From NCBI RefSeq assembly GCF_004010195.1, contig NC_057758.1, positions 1,570,927 to 1,592,640 on the forward strand: a DNA stretch of 21,714 nucleotides. The letters are read 5' to 3'. The stretch's first letter is position 1. Every line of letters starts with the position of its first letter. Both the position numbers and the translations under genes were made by a program. The notes under the pieces were generated by a model. It was not told the origin of the DNA, did no database searches, and saw only the letters and a program-made list of their open reading frames with translations. The DNA comes from Chiloscyllium plagiosum (Eukaryota). Shown piece by piece: positions 1 to 21,503 of the stretch.

Positions 1-664
1 GCAGCTTAAGAGATGTTTTCTGGTACTTTGCATTCATGAGTAACTGTCAACTCATGAACTTCCCTTGGTTTTGTGTTGCATTAGACAATGCTCAGAGCTT
101 TCTACTCAGGATAACGGTCGAGTTTCTCCTCCATTCCCACTGATTTTACAGTGCAACACCTTCACAGTCAGGCACATTTTAGTGAGCAGCAAATCCCGCA
201 GGCCAGTTTGAGTTTCGAGCAGTAAGCAAAGTCACAATGGCGCAGAGGTGGACAGTAGATGGAAATCCATCATTTTACTCCTGGCTATTCCGCCAACTTT
301 AACTTGTTATGGTCAACATTAATGACTTATTCTGTCCAGACGTAGATGTATAATTTAGTTTTCCGATCTGTGAAGATCGACAATTATGTGTATAATTGAG
401 CTCATGCTGCAGTTCCTGAGTTGCTGCACTCACACTTGAGTCCACAAATCACGACAATGAGTAATTTCAGACAGTAGATGACCAATATGCTGAAGAAACA
501 CTTCATACAAATTTTTCAATGTCTGAAGTGAGGTGAAAAACATATCAGGGAGAGAGTCCAGCATAAAACAACAGTTCTTGATAACTACGTATTAACCTAA
601 AATCCTTTACTGTCATTAGAAAAAATAAAAGCACTTTCTAGGTTTTATGGATCATCTTTTGGTA

Positions 665-4594: not shown

Positions 4595-4988
4595 TAACTC
4601 AGGAGAAGGGTAGGGACGTTTGTGAGCCTGGAGGCAGTAACGGTCACAAGGAATGAGCAATAATGTAGAAGCAGATTCTGGGAGAATTGGGACGTGGAAC
4701 CCGCCCTCCTCCTCTAACCAAAACAAAAAAGGACAATCATGTGTTTATTGTGTATCGTGTGATTGATTAAAGGTTTACTATTAATTGATTAATTTAATAA
4801 AACGACAGAGAAGTACAATAAATTACTGAGCTCATTAATTTGCATAAGTTAATTAAATAAGTAGAGATGGCTCGAGAAGTGATGTGCTGGGGATGTATGG
4901 TGTGGGAGTTGGCTGATCCCATTGTGAACAGTAGGGGTCACACATGTAGCAAGTGTTGTTCCGGAGCAGAATTGATGGTATAGAATCT
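4595..4988 (+). mobile_element. CR1 LINE 5' UTR and start of ORF1 (zinc-finger region)
   Basis: An AT-rich leader is followed by ATG at 4867 reading MAREVMCWGCMVWELADPIVNSRGHTCSKC (CxxC-x16-CxxC, typical of the CR1 ORF1p N-terminus), then RSRIDGIES. It is cut at 4988 by the SINE. The 5' boundary is uncertain. Confidence 0.6.
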
Positions 4989-5260
4989 GGGCGGCATGAT
5001 GGCTCAGTGGTTAGCACTGCTGCCTCACAGCACTAGGATCCTGGGTTCGATTCCTGCCTGTCTGTGTGGAGTATGCACATTCTCCTGGTGTCTGCGTGGG
5101 GTTTCTCTGGGTGCGCCGGTTTCCTCCCACAGTGCAAAGATGTGCAGGTCAGGTGAATTGGCCATGCTAAATTGCCCGTTGGTCAGTGATAAATAAAGGG
5201 TAGGGGAATGAGTTTGGGTGGACTTCTGTTCGGAGGGGCGGTATGGACTTGGTGGACTTG
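4989..5260 (+). mobile_element. tRNA-derived V-SINE (HE1-like)
   Basis: Starts GGGCGGCA; Pol III A box TGGCTCAGTGG at 5000-5010 and B box GGTTCGATTCC at 5044-5054; V-domain GTGTGGAG..TGCAC.TTCTCC..GTGTCTGCGTGGG...CCGGTTTCCTCCCAC. Homologous to 9449-9629 and 13962 onward. The 3' tail is missing. Confidence 0.9.
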
Positions 5261-5606
5261 AGGGGGGAGGTGTGGGCGCAAGGCGCAAGGCTCCCAGGAG
5301 GACCAGTTCCAAAAACGCACATCCCAGATGGCCTCCTTCTTCAAGGACCGCAATTTCCCCCCCGACGTGGTCGACGATGCCCTCCACCACTTCCCGATCC
5401 TCCGCCCTTGAACCCCGCCCCTCCAACGCCACCAGGACAGAACCCCACTGGTCCTCACCTACCACCCCACTAACCTCCATGTACAGCGCATCATCCGCCG
5501 TCATTTCCGCCACCTCCAAACGGACCCCACCACCAAGGATATATTTCCCTCCCCTCCCCTACCAGCATTCCGTAAAGACCACTCCCTCCGTGACTCCCCC
5601 GTCAGA

Positions 5607-5857
5607 NNNNNNNNNNNNNNNNNNNNNNNNNNNNNNNNNNNNNNNNNNNNNNNNNNNNNNNNNNNNNNNNNNNNNNNNNNNNNNNNNNNNNNNNNNNNNN
5701 NNNNNNNNNNNNNNNNNNNNNNNNNNNNNNNNNNNNNNNNNNNNNNNNNNNNNNNNNNNNNNNNNNNNNNNNNNNNNNNNNNNNNNNNNNNNNNNNNNNN
5801 NNNNNNNNNNNNNNNNNNNNNNNNNNNNNNNNNNNNNNNNNNNNNNNNNNNNNNNNN
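5607..5857. other. Assembly gap (251 N)
   Basis: Run of N. Confidence 1.
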
Positions 5858-6114: not shown

Positions 6115-8029
6115 CGGGAAAAAAATCTGTCAGCATTCACCCTATCCATGTGTTTCATGATCTCATTAACTTCTAGTAAGTTCTCCCTCAGCCTCCTGCG
6201 CTCTAAATAAAAGAAGTCGGAACTTTCCCAAACTCCCTGTAACTCAGTTACTTCAGTCCTGACATCAACTGTGTAAATTTCTTCTGCACTCCTTCCACTG
6301 TGATAATATAAATCCTAAAACAAGATGACCAAAACTGGACACAATACCACAAGTGTGGCTTCACCAACATCAGTATCCCTGCTACATAACTTCCCAACGT
6401 TGATATTCAATGCCTTGACTGATGAAGGCCAAAGTACCAAAAGCCTTCTTCACTGCCTTGTCTACCTGTGACTCCACTTTCAGTGAACTGTGCACTGAAT
6501 TCAATGGACCCTTTGTTCCACTACATTCTTAAGGTCGTGCTATTCACCATGAAACTCTTGCCTTGATGTGACACTCCAAGAAGGAATATCTCACACCATT
6601 TGCCATTTCTTGGCCTATTGCCCCAGCTGATCAAGATCCTTCTGCAATTTGTGATAACCTTCTGTACTGTTCAGTCCCACCTATTTTAGTGTTATCAGCA
6701 AATTTACTAATCATGACTTACACATTCTGATTCAAATCATTAATATAGATAACAAACAATAATGGGCCCATACTGTCCCGGGCCTGTCCACTATTCACAG
6801 GTCTCCAGCCCAACAAGCACCCTTCAACTATTAAACTCTTAACATCAAGGCAATTGTGTATCCAATTGGCCAGCACCTCTGGCCTTCATCGATCTAACCT
6901 ACTGGCAGCCTAATATGTGGAAATTTATTAAAGGCCTTACTGAAATTCATATCAACGACAGCTTTAGCCCGGGACTCATTAATCTTCCTGGTCACTTCAC
7001 CAATGAGCGCTAACAAATTTGTGTGGTATGGTCTCCCACGCAGAAATTCATGCTGAGTATTCCTCATCAAGCCCTATCTTCCCATATCTTATCTCTCAGA
7101 ATCTTCCAAGTAACATATCCACCACAGGTAGATGCATTACTGGTTTATAGATCCCAGGTTTATTTTTGCATTCTAATACGTCCAACACCTCTTCTACTGT
7201 GATATGGACGGTGCTCAAGATATCACCACTAACGTCCCCACGTTCCCAAGTCTTATGTGTGTCTGTACGGCAAACATCCAGAAGAAATATTCATCGAAGA
7301 ACTCGACCACTTACTGCGATTCCACACATGCATGTCCACTTTGGTTATTGAGAGGTGCAATTGCTTGTCTAGTTATTCTTTTTCCTTTAATATATTAAAC
7401 AACCTCTTTGGATTTAATCAAATCATCTCAACCAAGACTATTCCATGCACCCTTTTCACCCTCCACATTTCCTTCTTAAGTATACTCCTGTATTCTGTAT
7501 ATACCTGCAGGTGATTCCCTTGATCCCAGATACCCGTACCTGAGCCACATTTCCTTTTTTTGTTTAAATGCGTCAATATCTGTTTTCATTCAGAACTCCA
7601 TATTCCTGTCCACCTTGCCTTTCACCCTCACCGGAGCATATGGACCTCCAACTCGATCTATCTAACTTTTAAAATTCTCCTCCTTGCCGGAGGTCTCGTT
7701 GCCTGCAAACACATTATGCTAATCAACCCCTGCAAGCTCCTGTCTAATTGCATCAAAATTCGCCTTGCCCCACATTAGAACTGGAACCCGTGGATCAGTT
7801 TACCCCCTTTCCATAACTATTCAAAAATAATAGAAGGCTCCAAACTGTTCCCCCACTGACAATACAGTCACCTGTCCTGCCCTATATCCCAAGAATCTTT
7901 CAGAGTTTGCCACTTCCCGACTGGACCATCAATATACGGCTTAAGGCAACTTTTCTAAACGCACATAACAAATTCCATCCCATCTAACCCCATAAAGCTC
8001 TGGTAGTCCCAGTTTATGTCAGGACAATT
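6115..8029 (-). mobile_element. Older CR1 LINE ORF2 pseudogene, 3' part (end of APE through RT)
   Basis: Minus-strand translation gives DRVNADRFFP (~6147-6117), MISKFADN (~6714-6691, RT FADD-like), DMNFSKA (~6953-6933) and [19 protein letters not shown] next to the 8029 junction. It has many stops and frameshifts. Confidence 0.8.
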
Positions 8030-9807
8030 GTTAGTGGGTGAACATTTTGGTGATGGTGACCACAATTCTGTGACTTTCACCTTGGTTATGGAGAGAGATA
8101 GGTGCGCACAACAAGGTAGATTTTATAATTGGGGGAAGGGAAATTACGATGCTGTAAGGCAGGATTTGAGGAGCATACGTTGGGAGCATAGGCTGTCAGG
8201 GAAGGATGTGGTGGAAATGTGGAACTTTTTCAAAGAGCAGATAAGACGTGTCCATGATATGTATGTACCTATCAGGCAGGAAAGAAATGGTCGTGTGAGG
8301 GAGCCTTGGTTGACGAGAGAGGTTGAATGTCTGGCAAAGAGGAAGAAGGAGGCTTACATAAGGTTGAGGAAACAGGATTCAGACAGAGCAGTGGAGGGAT
8401 ACAGGATAGCCAGAAGGGACCTGAAGAAAGGGATTAGGAGAGCTAAGAATGGGCATGAAAAATCGTTGGCGGATAGGAACAAGGATAACCCCAAGGCATT
8501 TTATGCGTATGTGAGAAACCTGAGAATGACGAGAACGAGGATAGGTCCGATCAAGGACAGTAGTGGGAGACTGTGTATTGAGTCGGAAGAGATAGGAGAG
8601 GTCTTGAACAAGTACTTCTCTTCAGTATTTACGAACGAGAGGGACCGTATTGTAGAAGAGGAGAGTGTGAAATGGACTGGTAAGCTAGAAGAGATACCTG
8701 TTAGGAAGGAAGATGTGTTGGACATTTTGAACAACTTGAGGAGAGACAAGTCCCCCGGGCCTGACGGGATATATCCTAGGATTATGTGGGAAGCAAGAGA
8801 GGAAAGTGCAGTACCGTTGGCAATGATCTTCTCGTCTTCACTGGCAACGGGAGTGGTACCAGGGGACTGGAGAGTAGCGAATGTTGTGCCCCTGTTCAAA
8901 AAAGGGAATAGGGATAACCCCGGGAATTACAGGCCTGTTAGTCTTACTTCGGTGGTAGGCAAAGTAATGGAAAGGGTACTGAGGGATAGGATTTATGAGT
9001 ATCTGGAAAGACACTGCTTGATTAGGGACAGCCAGCACGGATTTGTGAAGGGTAGGTCTTACCTTACAAGTCTTATTGAATTCTTCGAGGAGGTGACCAA
9101 GCATGTGGAAGAGGGTAGAGCAGTGGATGTAGTGTACATGGATTCTAGTAAGGCATTTGATAAGGTTCCCCATGGTAGGCGTATGCGGAAAGTCAGGAGG
9201 CATGGGATAGAGGGAAATTTGGCCAATTGGATAGAAAACTGGCTAACCGGTCGAAGGCAGAGAGGGGTGGTAGATGGTAAATATTCAGCCTGGAGCCCAG
9301 TTACAAGTCGAGTTCCGCAGGGATCAGTTCTGGGTCCTCTGCTGTTCGTAATTTTTATTAATGACTTGGATGAGGGAGCCGAAGGGTGGGTCAGTAAATT
9401 TGCAGATGATACGAAGATAGGTGGAGTTGTGGACAGTGAGGAGGGCTGCAATTTAGTATGGCCAATTCACCTGACCTGCACATCTTTGGACTGTGGGAGG
9501 AAACCGGAGCACCCGGAGGAAACCCATGCAGACACGGGGAGAACGTGCAAACTCCACACAGTCAGTCGCCTGAGGCGGGAATTGAACCCGGATCTCCACT
9601 GTGCTAACCACTGTGCCACCGTGCCGCCCACTACAGTACCTTTTACTATTCTTCACTGAACACTGCAATTCATTGGCGACCTTTAAGCGGCATTTGGATA
9701 GGTACATGGATAGGTACTTAATCTAGGTTAGAAGTTCGGCACAACATCGTGGGCCGAAGGGCCTGTTCTGTGCTGTATTGTTCTATGTTCTATGTTCTAT
9801 GTTCTTT
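8030..9807 (+). mobile_element. Young 5'-truncated CR1-clade LINE (HER1-like) with 7-bp TSD; ORF2 open from the end of the APE domain to RT motif FADD
   Basis: ORF2 motifs [56 protein letters not shown] and KFADDTK. The 3' UTR has a stem-loop and a (GTTCTAT)n tail ending at 9807. GACAATT is duplicated at 8023-8029 and 9808-9814. The element is interrupted at 9449-9669. Confidence 0.95.
9449..9629 (-). mobile_element. V-SINE (HE1-like), antisense within the LINE, 3' part missing
   Basis: The reverse complement reads GGGCGGCACGGTGGCACAGTGGTTAGCAC..GGTTCAATTCC..GTGTGGAGTTTGCACGTTCTCCCCGTGTCTGC..GGCCATACTAAATTG. It has a short deletion between the A and B boxes relative to the other two copies. 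Confidence 0.92.
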
Positions 9808-13947: not shown

Positions 13948-14190
13948 CACGGTGGCACAGTGGGCGGCACGGTGGCACAGTGGTTAGCACTGCTGCCTCA
14001 CAGCGCCTGAGNNNNNNNNNNNNNNNNNNNNNNNNNNNNNNNNNNNNNNNNNNNNNNNNNNNNNNNNNNNNNNNNNNNNNNNNNNNNNNNNNNNNNNNNN
14101 NNNNNNNNNNNNNNNNNNNNNNNNNNNNNNNNNNNNNNNNNNNNNNNNNNNNNNNNNNNNNNNNTAATCTAATCTAAAAAATCTAATCTA
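13948..14190 (+). mobile_element. V-SINE (HE1-like) with duplicated 5' segment and (AATCT)n tail; middle lies in a gap
   Basis: GGGCGGCACGGTGGCACAGTGGTTAGCACTGCTGCCTCACAGCGCC starts at 13962; the tail taatctaatctaaaaaatctaatcta is at 14165-14190. Confidence 0.88.
14012..14164. other. Assembly gap (153 N)
   Basis: Run of N. Confidence 1.
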
Positions 14191-15060: not shown

Positions 15061-16330
15061 ATTTATGAGTATCTGGAAACACACTGCTTGATTAGGGACA
15101 GCCAGCACGGATTTGTGAGGGGTAGGTCTTGCCTTACAAGTCTTATTGAACTATTTGAGGAGGTGACCAAGTATGTGGATGAGGGTAGAGCAGTGGATGT
15201 AGTGTACATGGGTTTTAGTAAGGCATTTGATAAGGTTCCCCATGGTAGGCTTATGCGGAACGTCAGGAGGCATGGGATAGTGGGGGTTTGGCCAGTTGGA
15301 TAGAGAACTGGCTAACTGCTCGAAGTCTGAGAGTGGTGGTAGATGGTAAATATTCAGCCTGGAGCCCAGTTGCAAGTGGAGTTCCGCAGGGATCAGTTCT
15401 AGGTCCTCTGCTGTTTGTAATTTTTATTAATGACTTGGAAGAGGGAGTCGAAGGGTGGGTCAGTAAATTTGCAGACGATACGAGGATTGGTGGAGCTGTG
15501 GATTGTGAGGAGGGCTGTTTTCGGCTGGAAAGGGACTTAGATATGATGCAGAGTTGGGCTGAGGAGTGGCAGATGGAGTTCAACCCTGTCAAGTGTGAGG
15601 TCGTCCATTTTGGAAGGACAAATAAGAATGCAGAATACAGGTTTAACGGTAGGGTTCTTAGTAAGGTGGAAAAGCAGAGGGAGCTTGGAGTCTATGTTCA
15701 TAGATCTTTGAAAGTTGCCACTCAGGTGGATAAAACTTGTAAGAAGGCCTATGGTGTATTAGCGTTCATTAGCAGAGGGATTGAATTCAAGAGTCGTGAG
15801 GTGATGTTGTAGCTGTATATGACCTTGGTAAGGCCGCGTTTAGGGTACTGTGTGAAGTTCTGGTCGCTTCATTTTAGGAAAGATGTGAAAGCTTTGGAGA
15901 GGGTGCAGAGGAGATTTACCAGGATGTTGCTTGGAATGGAGAATAGGTCGTACGAGGATAGGTTGAGAATGCTAGGCCTTTTCTCATTGGAACGGAGAAG
16001 GATGAGGGGTGACTTGATAGGGATTTATAAGATGATCAGGGGAAAAGATAGAGTAGACAGTCAGAGACTTTTTCCCCGGGTACAACAGAGTGTTACAAGG
16101 GGACATAAATTTAAGATGAAGGGTGGAAGGTATAGGGGGATGCCAGAGGTAGGTTCTGGTGGGGGCATGGAATGCGCTGCGGGAGTGGCAGAGTCAGAAT
16201 CATTGGTGACCTTTAAGTGGCAATTGGATAGGTACATGGATAGGTGCTTAAGCAAGGACAAATGTTCGGCACAACATCGTGGACCGAAGGGCCTGTTCTG
16301 TGCTGCATTGTTCTATGTTCTATGTTCTAT
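15061..16330 (+). mobile_element. Second young 5'-truncated CR1 LINE copy, same family as 8030-9807; ORF2 disabled
   Basis: It aligns directly to 8991-9448 and 9670-9800. Motifs are [39 protein letters not shown] and LFSLERRRMRGDL. It has a frameshift near 15285, a TAG at 15810-15812 and a (GTTCTAT)3 tail. No clear TSD. Confidence 0.95.
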
Positions 16331-17889
16331 CTCTGTGTACAGTTGAGAAATGCAGTCACATCGTGAAATTGTAATGTCCTTTAAGTGAGCGCCTGTGTGA
16401 GAATGTGTGTATCTGCAAGCGTGTGTGAGCAACTGAAAGCGGACAAAAGCATGACAGTGTGTTTGCATATGTGGGCATGTGTGCATGTGAAAGGCTAAGT
16501 GTGTGAGTGTTTTTGTCTATGTATTTCTATGTCTATGTGTGTGAAGGGGGATCTCCAAAGGAACACTAATATCTTCAGTGAAATAGCAAATCTGATTGAG
16601 AGAGAACCACAACATTTCCTTGCATTTGTAATAAATGTCTCCTAACACTGACTGGTCATGCAGCGTTTGTCCTTCGCATTATTGACTATATGGTCATGCT
16701 AAAGTTCTGATATCATAAAGCCGACGGACCAAATCATTAAACAATTTCCCACCATTTAGAACAGAGGCATTCTGTTTCATTTCTTCTTTTCTTCCCACAA
16801 ATGTGAATCACCTTTCACCACGTTATATTCGAACTGCAATTCTTAAAGCAACCATCTATAAGATAGAGATAGAAAATTAAGTGGTATGACGGGATGTAGG
16901 AGGCTCCACTATATTCAATACTTTCATATTGTTATTATAATTTCTAGTCAGAAAACTGACTTCCGTCAGAGACAAATACTGACTGGAACTGAAAGTATAG
17001 ATTGGAAATAGAGTGTGATTTTAACATGTCACTGAGTTCGTTTGCAATTCTCCATTGCACTTTGACTGCAATCCACGTTATGTTCCATGTGACAAATATC
17101 TGTCCAAACAGTGAATTCGTCCATATCTGTTGCATTCCCTTTGATCTTAACCAAAGTCATCTCACACAACGTGGTCTTGTCTTTTAAGTTGGAGGCACGA
17201 CATTGTTTCTCTTCATCTAAGTTATTGATATGAATGATATATTGCTGCGACTTTATGAGTGACGCTTCTGGCAGCCGATTAGTACCGGCACACCAACCTG
17301 CAAAATAGTCTTTTGTGGTCCTTCTATTTTGGTGGGCACAAACAGCACTTTAGACGCATTACACAGTGTATTCAGGCTTTCCAATGTTGTTGTATACTTT
17401 CAGTACATTAGGTGACAGGGAAGGGATTGCGAAGCCACAGGCAAAAAGAAAGGGAACGAGCCAAAAAGGAAAGAGAGGAATAAAGGTTGAGGTGGAGCTG
17501 TGAGAAATTATTGAACTGAACCACTTCCTAAATGATTATATAAATTCAAAAAAAAATAACATTCATTTGGGATTGGAATTGAAATTTGTGGCGAACTTTC
17601 ATGTTATCCAGGGGTTAGCTAAGAATTCTCCTGGATAAATGCGACCTGAATCACAAATCCCCTCTGGTCAGCTCGTTTGACCAAGTTTAAACCAGGACGT
17701 TTGTCAGAAAATAAACTAGGTAGTTGTGGCGAACTCAAATGAGTACCAGTGAGCAGGATGTTTCGTGTGCAAATTGTGCTTGATAGTTCTGTTGATCACA
17801 CTGAATATCTGGTTTTTTAGATAACTAAGAACAGACTGATGGAGCCGTTGTTAATTGGTTTAGACATCTCTAAAATTCATTTGTTGCAC

Positions 17890-18020
17890 TTGGGCTTCGC
17901 TGGTTCGCCAGCATTATTAGCCCATCCTATTTACCTTTGACAAGGTAAGCTGCCTTCTTGAATCACTGCAGTCTAGTTGTCGTACATTGAACCAAAATGC
18001 CGGTAGGGCATGAATTCCCT
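17890..18020. repeat. Decayed interspersed repeat (probable antisense LINE/SINE 3' end)
   Basis: cgctggttcgccagcattattagcccatcc...gctgccttcttgaatcactgcagtc resembles a common elasmobranch retroposon terminus. Family not assigned. Confidence 0.4.
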
Positions 18021-18328
18021 GCTTAAAATGCACTGCACATCACTGGATATTTGTTATTAATATATTAGGTAGATGTCATTGTTATACTTGGATTGCAAAA
18101 GTTTGTTTGTGACAAGTCAGGTTTTGGAGTATTCACTACCGTAGGCCAAGTACTTTTTTAGCTCACTTCCTTTGTGAAATCTATTATACTCACATGTCAC
18201 GTGGAATAAATGAAATTGACTGAGTACTGGCTGGGCCTCTTAAGGAGTCATGAAATATTGCCTTCGCATATTTGCGCTGTTTCAGACCTGCCAGGATGGC
18301 CATTTAGTATTTTTTATATTTAATGAAT

Positions 18329-18454
18329 ATTGGTTTGTTTTCGAGGCGCTGAACGCCAATTAAACTGATCTCAGTATATGAATTGAACAATTGTAAATAG
18401 TGTTTGTGATGATGTAACTTGAGTGTGTCACAGGAGACTTGAGGTATGTATAAA
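18329..18454 (+). promoter_or_regulatory. Candidate core promoter of the GPCR gene
   Basis: TATAAA at 18449-18454 (80 nt before the ATG), CCAAT at 18356-18360 and ATTGG at 18329-18333. Supported only by short motifs and position. Confidence 0.35.
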
Positions 18455-18528
18455 TGGGCGATGACTTCCACTGCCTCAACCGTGCATCAGTCTTCAGCTG
18501 TGACTCAATTTTCGTACTATTACAGAAA

Positions 18529-18598
18529 ATGGAACAGCCAGGAATTCTGTTGATGAAAGAAATTTACTATCCGATTTTGGCAGCCATTGGTGTGCCTG
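18529..18598 (+). CDS. GPR139/GPR142-like class A GPCR, coding exon 1 (MEQPGILLMKEIYYPILAAIGVP + 1 nt)
   Basis: Good Kozak context (AAAATGG). It encodes the first half of TM1 (YYPILAAIGVP) and ends at a canonical donor G|GTGAGT, phase 1, in frame with exon 2. Confidence 0.9.
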
Positions 18599-18689
18599 GT
18601 GAGTCACTTTATTTTGTATTGTTATCGTGCATGAACTGTCTCTCTTCTTTCTCGCTCGAAATGTAGAATAATGCAACACATTTATACAA

Positions 18690-18850
18690 AGTCACAAGTA
18701 ACAGTTGCAAACGCAGGCATTGCTGGAAAAATGCTGGCAGCAACTGTGAAATTAAGAACTGAGGTAACGTTTCTGAGCTAGTGACTCTTTGAAGTAATTT
18801 CTGTTTCAGTTTCAGATTTCTACTATCGGCAGTTCTTTTTGTTTTATTTG
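18690..18850 (-). repeat. Intronic decayed short repeat related to Penelope terminal repeats
   Basis: ttgctggaaaa...ggcagca...aacgtttc.gag....gactctt resembles 13935-14250 in layout. The minus strand has a collapsed hammerhead-like ...aagagtcactagctcaGAAACGTTA. Confidence 0.4.
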
Positions 18851-19176
18851 AACTGTTAGTAGATATTTGTATCATTTGGCCAAACCTTACGTTGCAGTTT
18901 ACTTGTAATTTAATCAGATTGTGTTGCACTGCTTTTGAACGTTTAGGAGAATAATTTAGTCGCATTGCTTGGCACTCAGTTCCTTTTGAAAAGCCAGGTT
19001 TGTAACAAACCTTTACTCATTACAGAAGGTTTCCAAGGCAATTGCTTTAAAACAAATCGTCTTGCTACACGATAGTTTGCATTCACGCTGATAGAGTGAA
19101 CATTTGCTGTTCAGGTATATCTATTGCATTCTTCAACAGACAATGGAACATTGCTATCTGTTTTCGTTTCTTACAG

Positions 19177-20081
19177 CGAACCTGCTGACAATTGTGGTTC
19201 TTTTTCGAGGAAACTGCGCTCTTTCGAAGTGTATCTCTGTCTATATGGTGGCCATGGCAACAGCAGATCTACTGGTCATGCTCAATAATGTTTTAATATA
19301 CTATATTTTCAGTTATCACTTTCCAACTTCATTCCTGTCACAGACCTCCGTTTGTAAATGCATTATCTACATGACAGGTGTTACGCTTGATTGTTCTGTT
19401 TGGTTCACTGTTTCCTTTACGTTCGACCGATTTGTGGTGATATGCTGTCGGAAGTTTAAGACAAAGTACTGTACTGAAAGAACAGCGGTTATAGTTGTTA
19501 CAATTCTCGTTCTCCTGGTCTTTTTGAAAGATGTCCCAATTTTGCTTTCATTTGATCCTGAGATAACAGTTAACAAAATACAATGGGGATGCCGGGCAAA
19601 GGCATCTTTCTTCTCCTCAGATTTTGGTAAAACATTTGTGTGGTTTCACAGCTCTTCCCTCATTTGGTTCCCTTTCATTTTGATTGCCACATTTAACTCT
19701 TTAACTATCAGAAAGATTGTGCTGAGCAGTCGAGCCAGAAGAAGAATCCACAACCATACCCATGAGAATCAGAGTGATTCTGAGATGCAGAATCGAAAGA
19801 AATCCGTAATCTTGCTCTTCGCTATTTCAAGCAGCTTCATATTGTTGTGGTTAACACATGCTGTGACATTAGTAACGACCAAACTGACAAACACTACTTA
19901 TTACCGAGGTGATCGCACAGACCCAGGCTACATCGCCACTGAAGTTGCAGCTCTCTTGAGGTATTTTAGCTCCTCTCTAAACCCATGGATTTATGCAGCA
20001 ACCCAGACGGTATTTAGGGAACAACTGAAATATACATTATTATCTCCCTGTACGCTATTTATCAGATTAAGTAGGAAATGA
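19177..20081 (+). CDS. GPR139/GPR142-like class A GPCR, coding exon 2 (spliced protein 324 aa)
   Basis: The acceptor ttttcgtttcttacAG at 19175-19176 restores GVP-A-NLLT. There are seven hydrophobic segments with TM2 MATADL, a TM3 Cys and DRF (19425-19433), an ECL2 Cys (WGC), a TM5 Pro, TM7 NPWIY (19980-19994) and helix 8 FREQL. No stops before TGA at 20079-20081. It is too divergent to call an orthologue of GPR139, so no symbol is given. Confidence 0.93.
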
Positions 20082-20699
20082 GGGACAAAACGACAACTTT
20101 GAAACATTTTCTCGACGTAAAGCTTTTATTTAAACGCATTTCATATCGAACTAGCTCCTTCACAGTGTGGTGACCATCACAACGCGACTTTGTGTATCTT
20201 TCTTCCGAAGTGCAGAGTATCGTTTATGCAGAATTAATTTTAGGCATGATGCAAGATGTGATCTGTGCAGTGTCAGGCAACTTTCATCTTTAGAAAAAGA
20301 TACAGAACAGGAGGAAGGAAACTAAATACGTAGAATTAGGAATGAGAGGGTTTGCAGAACTGAGATTGAAATGACTGGGTGGAAGATGAGAAGAAGTAAT
20401 ATATGTAATAACAAACGAGCCAAGCATGGCGTGGTGCTGAACGGGGTTCATGTGATAAGTAGGGAGTAGTGTGTGTGGGTGGTTAACAGAGTGTGGAATA
20501 TGAGCAAGTGAAATTGGAGTGTGGATCAAAGATATTAATGAAAACATATATCAGGTTGTCCTCATGCTTGGTAAAAACCGTGTAAGTTGTATTACATGTC
20601 GGCGTGAAATATGTCCCCATTGGACTCAATGGGGCATTGGTTCTTTTAATGGACGAGTGACCTCATCATTCAATCAAGGAAAGGTATAATTTCATTGGG

Positions 20700-20960
20700 G
20701 CAGTTCAGAGAAATTCAATTGGATTATCGCTGGTATGAAGGCACTGTACTGTTAACAAATTAAACTAAGCAGGTTGAAAGCTTGCTCACTGGAGTTTACA
20801 AAAATGTGTAGTTATCTCAATGAAAGAAAAAATACTCATAAGTGGTGTGACCTGAAAATATAAAGAGTATTTTCCATTTCATAGTAGCGTCAAAGACAAC
20901 TGGGCAGCCTCTTGGAACAACGGATTGATAACTGAGGAGGGATTTCTTCCTAGAGAGTTG
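20700..20960 (+). mobile_element. Heavily decayed CR1 ORF2 C-terminal fragment
   Basis: aggttg...ctcactggagtttacaaaaatgtgtagttatctcaatgaaa resembles the RL...SLEFRRMRGDLIE region seen intact at ~15960-16030. Confidence 0.4.
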
Positions 20961-21071
20961 AGTCTTTGATCTAATTTGAGTTGATGTATTGTCATGTACA
21001 GTGAAAACTTTGCTTGACAACAGTGAAGGCAGACCATTGAAAACAAGGACATGGACATCACAGGTGAAAAA

Positions 21072-21503
21072 AAGGTGACAGAATAAGGCGTACAGGTTGC
21101 ATTACACAGAGCATGCGTGAGGCAAGGAAAAGGTGAACGAGACCAACATGAATTGAAATTAGAAACTTTTCGTCATCCTAGTAACGGCAGAGAAGGAGCT
21201 GTTCTTGAAAACGCTGGTGTGTGTGTTCAAATTTGAATCTCATTATCATGGAGAGGTTACATAGAACATAGAACATAGAAGAATACAAAGGTGACAGAAT
21301 AAGGCGTACAGGTTGCATTACACAGAGCATGCGTGAGGCAAGGAAAAGGTGAACGAGACCAACATGAATTGAAATTAGAAACTTTTCGTCATCCTAGTAA
21401 CGGCAGAGAAGGAGCTGTTCTTGAAAACGCTGGTGTGTGTGTTCAAATTTGAATCTCATTATCATGGAGAGGTTACATAGAACATAGAACATAGAAGAAT
21501 ACA
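21072..21503. repeat. Perfect direct tandem duplication, 2 x 216 bp
   Basis: 21072-21287 is identical to 21288-21503 by direct comparison. Confidence 0.97.

What the first reader, a model, noticed from the sequence alone, without database searches (positions are those of the whole stretch)
18529..20081. Intact two-exon orphan GPCR of the GPR139-like group, hidden from the ORF track, with atypical microswitches
Seen: splicing across a 578-nt phase-1 GT-AG intron gives an uninterrupted 324-aa 7TM protein. It has only about 10 residues before TM1, no N-terminal glycosylation sequon, DRF instead of DRY, no TM4 Trp, WLT in place of the TM6 WxP, a canonical NPxxY and a short C-tail. Known (from recall): GPR139 has YY..L...GLP/AN in TM1 with an intron at this position, GPR139/142 sense aromatic amino acids, and shark annotations contain many divergent 'probable GPR139' genes. 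Inference: this is one member of a cartilaginous-fish expansion of uncharacterised small-molecule receptors, possibly chemosensory or metabolite-sensing. It is the only intact gene among decayed repeats.
Basis: partly seen in the sequence, partly recalled or inferred. Interest (0 to 1): 0.7.

Follow-up and report, generated by a model that had tools for sequence, protein, structure and literature searches.

The report
Shark receptor from large unnamed family
This is an intact shark receptor gene from a large, apparently undescribed family, distantly related to the brain receptor GPR139, whose binding pockets have diversified the way smell receptors do, so it may be an overlooked chemical-sensing system in sharks and rays.

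Summary
Observation confirmed: 18529-18598 plus 19177-20081, across a 578-nt phase-1 GT-AG intron, encode a stop-free 324-aa class A GPCR. It has 1170 homologue clusters; the best 120 are all shark proteins, 115 auto-named GPR139. It is not a GPR139 orthologue: it nests in a shark/ray clade whose sister is a salamander lineage; low-copy relatives occur in bony fish, coelacanth, amphibians, reptiles, lamprey and amphioxus. Those keep the basic 6.51 residue that binds L-Trp/L-Phe in GPR139; none of the 120 nearest shark proteins does. Pocket-facing positions are hypervariable in the expansion but conserved in a low-copy relative: the signature of a ligand-diversified repertoire. The 'atypical microswitches' are family traits, partly shared with GPR139. 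A decayed paralogue at 3-528 was missed. Best reading: a sensor of external chemicals (0.55); tissue and ligand are untested. Ten literature searches found no description of the expansion. This scan noted the same family before, in a ray genome (e1-7813824).

The parts
18357..18440 (+). Upstream block shared at 90% or more with another contig of the same organism (candidate shared promoter); holds a homeodomain-like CAATTA (18357) and TGATGTAA (18410-18417)
   Evidence: run X1 contig of depth 56 matches up to 18440 and again from 18538; the left end is estimated from the listed differences. The 8-mer is not enriched in the window (11 of 100 shuffles reach 5 matches). Lead only.
18449..18454 (+). 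TATA-like hexamer 80 nt before the ATG
   Evidence: Sequence; function inferred
18529..18598 (+). Exon 1 coding part: 23 codons + 1 nt, short N-terminus and first half of TM1
   Evidence: 102 tblastn rows from the 120 homologues fall here; 89 of 120 homologues align from residue 1
18599..19176 (+). 578-nt phase-1 GT-AG intron inside TM1, in the codon before N1.50
   Evidence: present as DNA in run X1 (record 3); splicing not shown by reads
19177..20081 (+). Exon 2: rest of TM1 to helix 8 and stop codon
   Evidence: PF00001 83.3 bits; no indel listed in the CDS in run X1
20759..20764 (+). ATTAAA, first poly(A)-signal-like hexamer after the stop
   Evidence: use not shown
3..528 (+). Decayed paralogue of the same family (ECL2/TM5 to helix 8, cut by the window start), with frameshifts and stops, about 18 kb upstream on the same strand
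   Evidence: Family HMM 39.4 bits, i-E 1e-13; tblastn pieces in frames 3, 2, 1, best to P0159/P0141/P0142, a different sub-branch

Best explanation
An intact two-exon class A GPCR, one copy of a birth-and-death family that grew in sharks and rays out of an old low-copy chordate lineage related to GPR139/GPR142 (shown). The family kept the signalling face and fold (N1.50, D2.50, R3.50, P5.50, W6.48, N7.49, Y7.53, helix 8, TM3-ECL2 cysteine pair, ECL2 hairpin), lost the ancestral R/K6.51 carboxylate anchor and P6.50, and diversified the pocket-lining residues (shown). It most likely works as one unit of a repertoire: each paralogue binds a different set of small external molecules or short peptides in the orthosteric pocket and all feed a common G protein (inferred). 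Two kept acids (D3.37, E7.35/36) with H5.43 and H6.51 in this copy point to amine-bearing or peptide ligands (inferred, weak). Most likely cells: sparse chemosensory cells of nose, mouth, skin, gill or gut (inferred; no expression data).
For: 1170 of 3673 candidates are homologues; the best 120 come from 10 shark species, up to 32 clusters from one species. Hits share scaffolds: 9 of 9 S. canicula and 6 of 6 S. torazame rows have one longest-contig length each, 17 of 29 Heterodontus rows another. Pseudogene neighbour in the window. In run X1 the TM1-TM2 bin has summed depth 1357 against 9.6-12 on unique flanks (the tool warns this is no copy number). Entropy at 27 pocket positions 1.67 bits against 0.98 at other TM positions (p 4e-5) and 1.20 at 52 non-pocket positions of the extracellular halves (p 0.008); in low-copy lineage B (115 rows, 61% mean identity against 66%) the pocket is more conserved (0.65 against 1.00 and 1.10); sliding the pocket list by 1-2 residues weakens both contrasts. 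Intracellular face 0.69 bits. 31 of 32 Pristiophorus paralogues have distinct 10-site pocket strings. Basic 6.51: 0 of 120 nearest, 7 of 56 distant members, but 115 of 115 B, 3 of 3 A, 2 of 2 C, 6 of 7 amphioxus. 13 of 23 CDS differences in X1 contigs are synonymous against 0.26 expected (p 0.002), none makes a stop. Short N-terminus without sequon in 85 of 85 short-start models. A relative (P0243) passes the Pfam cut-off for nematode Srw chemoreceptors.
Against: No expression data and no ligand. 'The Sensory Shark' (PMC11979771) reports no GPCR gene among the top 50 brain/olfactory genes and never names GPR139 (passages); this says little for rarely expressed receptors. Syed et al. (PMC10116579) account for the catshark nose with V2R/OlfC in microvillous neurons (passages). 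Variable pockets also arise in immune or skin receptor expansions and under relaxed constraint. The pocket list and residue numbering are mine (generic class A positions from recall, anchored on motifs); p-values treat sites as independent, and paralogues are compared with orthologues. This copy departs from the family consensus at 15 core sites against a median of 7 and 90th percentile of 13, so it may be under weaker constraint, though its own species is not in the set. The synonymous test uses only segments 90% or more alike, which favours conserved parts.
Confidence: 0.55

Rival explanations
1. Immune or barrier surveillance repertoire: the paralogues sit on leukocytes, mast-like or skin cells and detect microbial or parasite peptides and metabolites, as FPR- or MRGPR-type expansions do in mammals (recalled). 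This overlaps with the best explanation in mechanism and differs in cell type.
For: Same sequence signature. Peptide-receptor-like ECL2 hairpin with the cysteine pair in both models; the top fold matches are peptide receptors. About three reads 90-95% alike to the TM1-TM2 segment in a single-cell run of unknown tissue may be paralogue transcripts.
Against: No immune expression data; fold matches are tied among class A receptors (Z 27-28) and show no function.
Confidence: 0.2
2. GPR139-like neuromodulator or nutrient sensor for an endogenous ligand (L-Trp, L-Phe, a neuropeptide), merely present in many copies.
For: GPR139 is the best PDB match of the family profile (65.4 against 49.6 bits; 141.5 against 105.5 with outgroups); H5.43 and W6.48 are kept in this copy.
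Against: R6.51, needed for GPR139 activation and for binding L-Trp/L-Phe (PMC8807744), is absent in 120 of 120 nearest members; the acids at 2.61, 3.29, 3.32 are absent; sharks keep a separate low-copy lineage B gene with that pocket; one ligand does not predict a hypervariable pocket.
Confidence: 0.12
3. Largely neutral amplification: copies spread by segmental duplication in repeat-rich DNA and drift; this copy is intact by chance or is an early pseudogene.
For: LINE-rich surroundings; decayed neighbour; 15 departures from consensus; near-identical copies in some species (clusters 5 and 6).
Against: Invariant signalling residues across ten species; variability concentrated in the pocket; synonymous excess; sub-branches shared between shark orders; confident full 7TM model of a 64%-identical homologue (pLDDT 90.6).
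Confidence: 0.1

Closest known systems
Human GPR139 (PDB 7VUG, 9M42) and GPR142
   Same: Best solved-structure match of the family profile. Shared TM1 YY...G-x-P-A-N, S-x-W in TM3, no TM4 Trp, N5.58, W6.48; two-exon gene (PMC7318219 passages).
   Different: About 20% identity (P0006 against 7VUG); exon 2 alone scores 24.8 bits, no better than other class A receptors. No R6.51, no acids at 2.61/3.29/3.32, T6.50 for P, T or P at 7.50 for F; the family has C3.25 and an ECL2 Cys (120 and 118 of 120), while the GPR139 row of the alignment has Asp opposite C3.25. Many clustered copies against one conserved gene.
Low-copy non-mammalian GPR139-like lineages A (salamanders), B (sharks to reptiles), C (anchovy, lamprey), amphioxus; probably including GPR210A/B of Rinne et al. 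2019 (PMC6504862)
   Same: One clade with the expansion against mollusc-type outgroups (100/100); A is sister to the expansion (99/99). Short N-terminus, C3.25-ECL2 pair, ECL3 R-x-D in B and C, similar helix 8.
   Different: 24-34% identity to this gene; they keep R/K6.51 and, in B, a nearly invariant pocket; low copy number. The match of B or C to GPR210 was not verified by identifier.
Vertebrate chemosensory repertoires (OR, TAAR, V1R/ORA, V2R/OlfC, T2R)
   Same: Many clustered copies, pseudogenes, short termini, variable pocket on a conserved signalling face (hallmarks recalled; tested here).
   Different: No Pfam hit to an olfactory, vomeronasal or taste model; different ancestry; coding intron; no N-terminal sequon; sensory expression not shown.
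Nematode Srw/Srx chemoreceptors and protostome FMRFamide/MIP/proctolin receptor group
   Same: The wider clade: Srx E 0.008 for exon 2 (below cut-off), Srw above cut-off for P0243, Srw clusters at 0.95-0.96 in the Atlas; GPR139 linked to MIP, proctolin and FMRFamide receptors (PMC12208981 passages).
   Different: Separate expansions in far lineages; about 20-23% identity for the mollusc-type outgroups.

Membership tests
Class A (rhodopsin) GPCR | PF00001 above gathering score | tested here: met
   83.3 bits against 30.5
Class A (rhodopsin) GPCR | Seven helices, helix 8, core residues N1.50, D2.50, R3.50, P5.50, W6.48, N7.49, Y7.53 | tested here: met
   model of homologue P0006 pLDDT 90.6, pTM 0.88, Z 27-28 to class A receptors. 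Exon-2-only model was weak (pLDDT 64.5).
GPR139/GPR142-related superclade | GPR139 is the nearest characterised receptor by profile | tested here: met
   GPR139 first, by 13-36 bits; only receptors with solved structures are compared
GPR139/GPR142-related superclade | Grouping with GPR139/142 in a tree | not testable with these tools
   No GPR139 or GPR142 sequence was returned (motif scan); trees lack them
GPR139/GPR142-related superclade | Phase-1 intron just before N1.50 | tested here: inconclusive
   Homologue models often start at this boundary in the expansion (18 of 120) and in lineage B (12 of 118 at the equivalent residue); the GPR139 position is recalled, the review says only two exons
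GPR139 orthologue | High one-to-one conservation (70% human-zebrafish, PMC7318219) | tested here: not met
   About 20% identity; dozens of paralogues per species
GPR139 orthologue | Basic residue at 6.51 | tested here: not met
   His251 here; 0 of 120 nearest homologues have R or K; requirement from PMC8807744
GPR139 orthologue | Acids at 2.61, 3.29, 3.32 and F7.50 | tested here: not met
   Y65, I87, T90, P293
GPR139 orthologue | Activation by L-Trp/L-Phe, Gq/11 coupling, habenular expression | not testable with these tools
   No assay or tissue data
GPR210 (Rinne et al. 2019) | Orthology to the named coelacanth/gar Ensembl proteins | tested here: inconclusive
   Identifiers could not be linked to P0213/P0273; that study has no occurrence of 'shark' or 'cartilaginous'
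OR / TAAR / V1R / V2R / T2R | Sequence membership (family-specific Pfam models, ancestry) | tested here: not met
   Only 7tm_1 and a sub-threshold Srx hit; nearest PDB profile match GPR139
Works like a chemosensory repertoire | Large clustered family with pseudogenes | tested here: met
   per-genome totals not counted
Works like a chemosensory repertoire | Hypervariable pocket, conserved G-protein face, purifying selection | tested here: met
   with lineage B and register-shift controls
Works like a chemosensory repertoire | Sparse expression in sensory cells | not testable with these tools
   read 2% and 6% of two single-cell runs of unknown tissue: no test

The most novel reading that the evidence does not exclude
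Sharks and rays carry an unrecognised fifth chemosensory receptor family, as large as or larger than their V2R set, built from a GPR139-related ancestor by loss of the 6.51 anchor and pocket diversification, and expressed sparsely in olfactory, taste or solitary chemosensory cells. It would overturn the view that cartilaginous fishes have few chemoreceptors and few GPCRs.
Probability: 0.38. Interest if true: 0.88.

Novelty: new variant of a known kind. Interest (0 to 1): 0.62.

Why it matters
Papers describe the shark olfactory repertoire as small (catshark: 34 V2R/OlfC and 4-9 genes in each other family, PMC10116579) and note a paucity of GPCRs in cartilaginous fishes (PMC8455134). One branch of this family alone gives 25-32 clusters per species among the 120 best hits, hidden under an automatic 'probable GPR139' name. 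If sensory, it bears directly on the open question of how sharks discriminate chemicals with so few known receptors, and it is testable with existing organ transcriptomes. The graded series (amphioxus, lineages B and C with R6.51; salamander A with K6.51; basal shark members with W-x-P-R/K; derived members with W-L-T-x) shows how a fixed-ligand receptor may become a repertoire. Lineage B is also a conserved, unassayed orphan with a GPR139-like pocket in fish, amphibians and reptiles. This single gene is only one more member.

Tried and rejected
Whole-genome search: no genome is held for this window, so copy number, cluster layout and dN/dS over paralogue DNA could not be computed. RNA: no RNA holder listed; laying runs X21, X22, X23 gave 4 partial reads at 90-95%, 0 reads, and only repeat-like contigs, with no junction 18598-19177; 2% and 6% of the two single-cell runs were read and their tissue is unknown, so this is no test. 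Retrieval of true GPR139/142 through an amphioxus TM1-TM3 region search returned 8 amphioxus proteins only. Fold searches do not single out GPR139 (rank 11; not among rows shown); all class A receptors are tied, so no inference is drawn. Alternative acceptor 19209 rejected (deletes N1.50); in-frame ATG at 18454 judged unlikely (overlaps the TATA hexamer); intronic ATG 19143 rejected (replaces TM1 with non-homologous sequence). Promoter 8-mer TGATGYAA: 5 matches in the window, reached by 11 of 100 shuffles; no O/E-like site at 17800-21000: lead only. Literature: 10 searches, listings only unless named in the report; none listed a description of the expansion; the library lacks most subscription papers, the supplement of PMC11979771 was unreadable and bioRxiv supplements are closed, so a table may mention these genes. 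Look-ups of earlier findings by sequence, by a second word set and by place gave nothing. Trees used subsets: 87 and 39 rows out of about 400 proteins held; 26 of the distant representatives were drawn at random and partial models were left out; P0204 was labelled chimaera and P0254 frog from recalled accession prefixes, not from a call, so chimaera membership is unverified.

Full report
1. Observation. Exon 1 (18529-18598, 70 nt) and exon 2 (19177-20081, 905 nt) flank a 578-nt phase-1 GT-AG intron and give 324 residues without a stop. Of 11 AG sites tested only two keep the frame, and the second removes N1.50. The stop-free frame of 328 codons exceeds all 500 shuffles (max 198). Exon 2 hits PF00001 at 83.3 bits. 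89 of 120 homologue models align from residue 1 of the spliced protein. A TATA hexamer lies at 18449. A DNA run of organism A covers all 30 bins, lists no indel in the coding part and holds the intron. Splicing was not seen in reads; that call was no test. The gene is not hidden: exon 2 lies in a 312-codon ATG-started frame.

2. Surroundings. Two LINE-type reverse-transcriptase remnants (Pfam RVT_1 in frames starting 8007 and 15249), shorter repeats, two N gaps and an exact 216-nt tandem duplication fill the window. The gene therefore sits in a mixed tandem neighbourhood with gene death.

3. The family. The protein search gave 1170 homologue clusters among 3673 candidates; only the best 120 were visible. 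They come from 10 shark species at 44-65% identity, and 115 are named probable or putative GPR139. Counts per species among the 120: Pristiophorus 32, Heterodontus 29, Heptranchias 25, S. canicula 9. All 9 S. canicula rows share one longest-contig length, as do all 6 S. torazame rows and 17 of 29 Heterodontus rows, which points to clustering. A profile search of 50%-identity representatives gave 132 proteins at E up to 1e-30; named ones include skates, a stingray and a devil ray. In the window's own organism the TM1-TM2 bin has summed contig depth 1357 against 9.6-12 on unique flanks; the tool warns that this is no copy number, but it fits very many similar copies.

4. Ancestry. GPR139 is the best solved-structure match of the family profile (65.4 bits against 49.6; 141.5 against 105.5 with outgroups), although exon 2 alone scores only 24.8 bits. 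The tail led to low-copy relatives: lineage A in salamanders, B in coelacanth, C in anchovy and lamprey, and amphioxus genes. Lineage B has 145 hits; the 120 listed cover sharks, sturgeon, teleosts, amphibians, turtles and squamates, mostly one per species, with no bird or mammal among the named rows; two rows are named TMEM183A isoforms, which hints at a fixed neighbour. In a careful 39-row tree the window gene nests in the chondrichthyan clade (93/94), next to a Stegostoma protein (95/89); that clade plus lineage A has 99/99; B, C and amphioxus are separate clades (the 87-row quick tree agrees). A has a long branch, so its place needs more taxa. True GPR139/142 sequences could not be retrieved and are not in the trees. 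Rinne et al. 2019 (PMC6504862; passages and a supplement search) named fish and coelacanth orphans near GPR139/142 'GPR210A/B'; B or C are probably these, unverified; the paper has no shark data. So the expansion is restricted to cartilaginous fish as far as names were seen, but the lineage is not.

5. Motifs. DRF, WLT and the missing TM4 Trp are family traits. GPR139 itself has no TM4 Trp in the alignment and F at 7.50 (PMC8807744, parts 1-2 of 3 read). NPxxY is the minority: P7.50 in 42 of 120 near and 1 of 56 distant members. The derived features are loss of P6.50 and of the basic 6.51. In GPR139 R244(6.51) binds both side chain and carboxyl of L-Trp/L-Phe in docking, only Lys substitutes, and D84, E105, E108 face the amine. 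Here these positions are H251, Y65, I87, T90. R or K at 6.51: 0 of 120 nearest, 7 of 56 distant members (4 with W-x-P), 3 of 3 A, 115 of 115 B, 2 of 2 C, 6 of 7 amphioxus. The family keeps C3.25 (120 of 120) and the ECL2 cysteine (118 of 120), and both models show an ECL2 hairpin.

6. Pocket variability. With 27 generic class A pocket positions (list recalled, numbering anchored on motifs), entropy in the 120 nearest members is 1.67 bits against 0.98 for other TM positions (p 4e-5) and 0.69 for the intracellular face; in 56 distant members 2.56 against 1.53; in lineage B 0.65 against 1.00. Against non-pocket positions of the extracellular halves only: 1.67 against 1.20 (p 0.008), and reversed in B (0.65 against 1.10, p 0.003). 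Shifting the list by one or two residues lowers the value to 1.16-1.47 in the expansion and raises it to 0.87-1.21 in B. The 16 positions named for GPR139 give 1.53, 2.89 and 0.52. 31 of 32 Pristiophorus and 21 of 25 Heptranchias paralogues have distinct 10-site pocket strings. Among 23 coding differences in X1 contigs 13 are synonymous (0.26 expected, p 0.002; conserved segments are favoured). Against: this copy has 15 departures from consensus (median 7, 90th percentile 13).

7. Mechanism. Shown: intact frame, class A fold, family membership, loss of the GPR139 amino-acid anchor, diversified pocket on a conserved signalling face. Inferred: each paralogue binds different small molecules or short peptides, probably amine-bearing given D3.37 and E7.35/36, and signals through a shared G protein (GPR139 uses Gq/11 mainly, also Gi). 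Most likely role: sensing external chemicals (0.55), with sensory cells proper at about 0.38; rivals are immune or barrier surveillance (0.2), an endogenous-ligand receptor (0.12) and drift (0.1). Nothing here shows tissue or ligand.

8. Literature. Ten searches listed no description of the expansion; 'GPR139' with 'shark' gave 4 papers, none on it by title or abstract start. Passages read: PMC11979771 (no GPR139; small OR, ORA and TAAR sets; supplement unreadable and possibly relevant), PMC10116579 (34 V2R/OlfC genes dominate the catshark nose), PMC8455134 (paucity of GPCRs in cartilaginous fishes), PMC12208981 (GPR139 related to MIP, proctolin and FMRFamide receptors), PMC7318219 (two exons; 70% human-zebrafish). 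Subscription papers are mostly not searched.

9. Verdict. Real, intact gene; one member of a database-annotated but apparently undescribed family that behaves in sequence like a ligand-diversified repertoire. Not a GPR139 orthologue and not a member of a known chemoreceptor family. Novelty: new variant of a known kind. Interest 0.62; 0.88 if sensory expression is shown.

Noticed in passing
window 3-528 (+): Decayed paralogue of the same receptor family, from a different sub-branch, with frameshifts and stops; cut by the window start.
   Followed up: yes
P0213, P0279, P0282, P0286 and the other rows: Lineage B: a conserved low-copy GPR139-like orphan in sharks, bony fish, coelacanth, amphibians, turtles and squamates with a nearly invariant pocket (E2.61, D3.29, Y3.33, R6.51, D7.35) but S/C at 6.48; two models are named TMEM183A isoforms. 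Possibly GPR210 of Rinne et al.
   Followed up: partly
P0210, P0269, P0272: Salamander lineage A, one 90% cluster across three genera, sister to the shark expansion, with S1.50, N2.50 and W-L-P-K in TM6; no other bony-vertebrate member was seen.
   Followed up: partly
window 8007-9660 (+) and about 15061-16346 (+): Two LINE (CR1-like, recalled) reverse-transcriptase remnants, 92% identical over 458 nt; the first contains an N-free 550-codon open frame.
   Followed up: partly
window 21071-21502: Exact 216-nt tandem duplication next to a LINE end; recent duplication or assembly artefact.
   Followed up: no
window 18357-18440 and 18520-18531: Upstream block and the ACAGAAAATG start context are shared with other contigs of the same organism; the AG before the ATG could also be an acceptor for an upstream non-coding exon.
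   Followed up: partly
window 4988-5600, 9448-9630, 17907-18013, 18763-18869: Short high-copy repeat fragments (summed depth 11375 at 17907-18013 and 124 in the intron bin); the 5412-5600 frame looks like a Penelope-type element piece (recalled, no Pfam hit).
   Followed up: no
window 5607-5857 and 14012-14164: Two assembly gaps (251 and 153 N).
   Followed up: no
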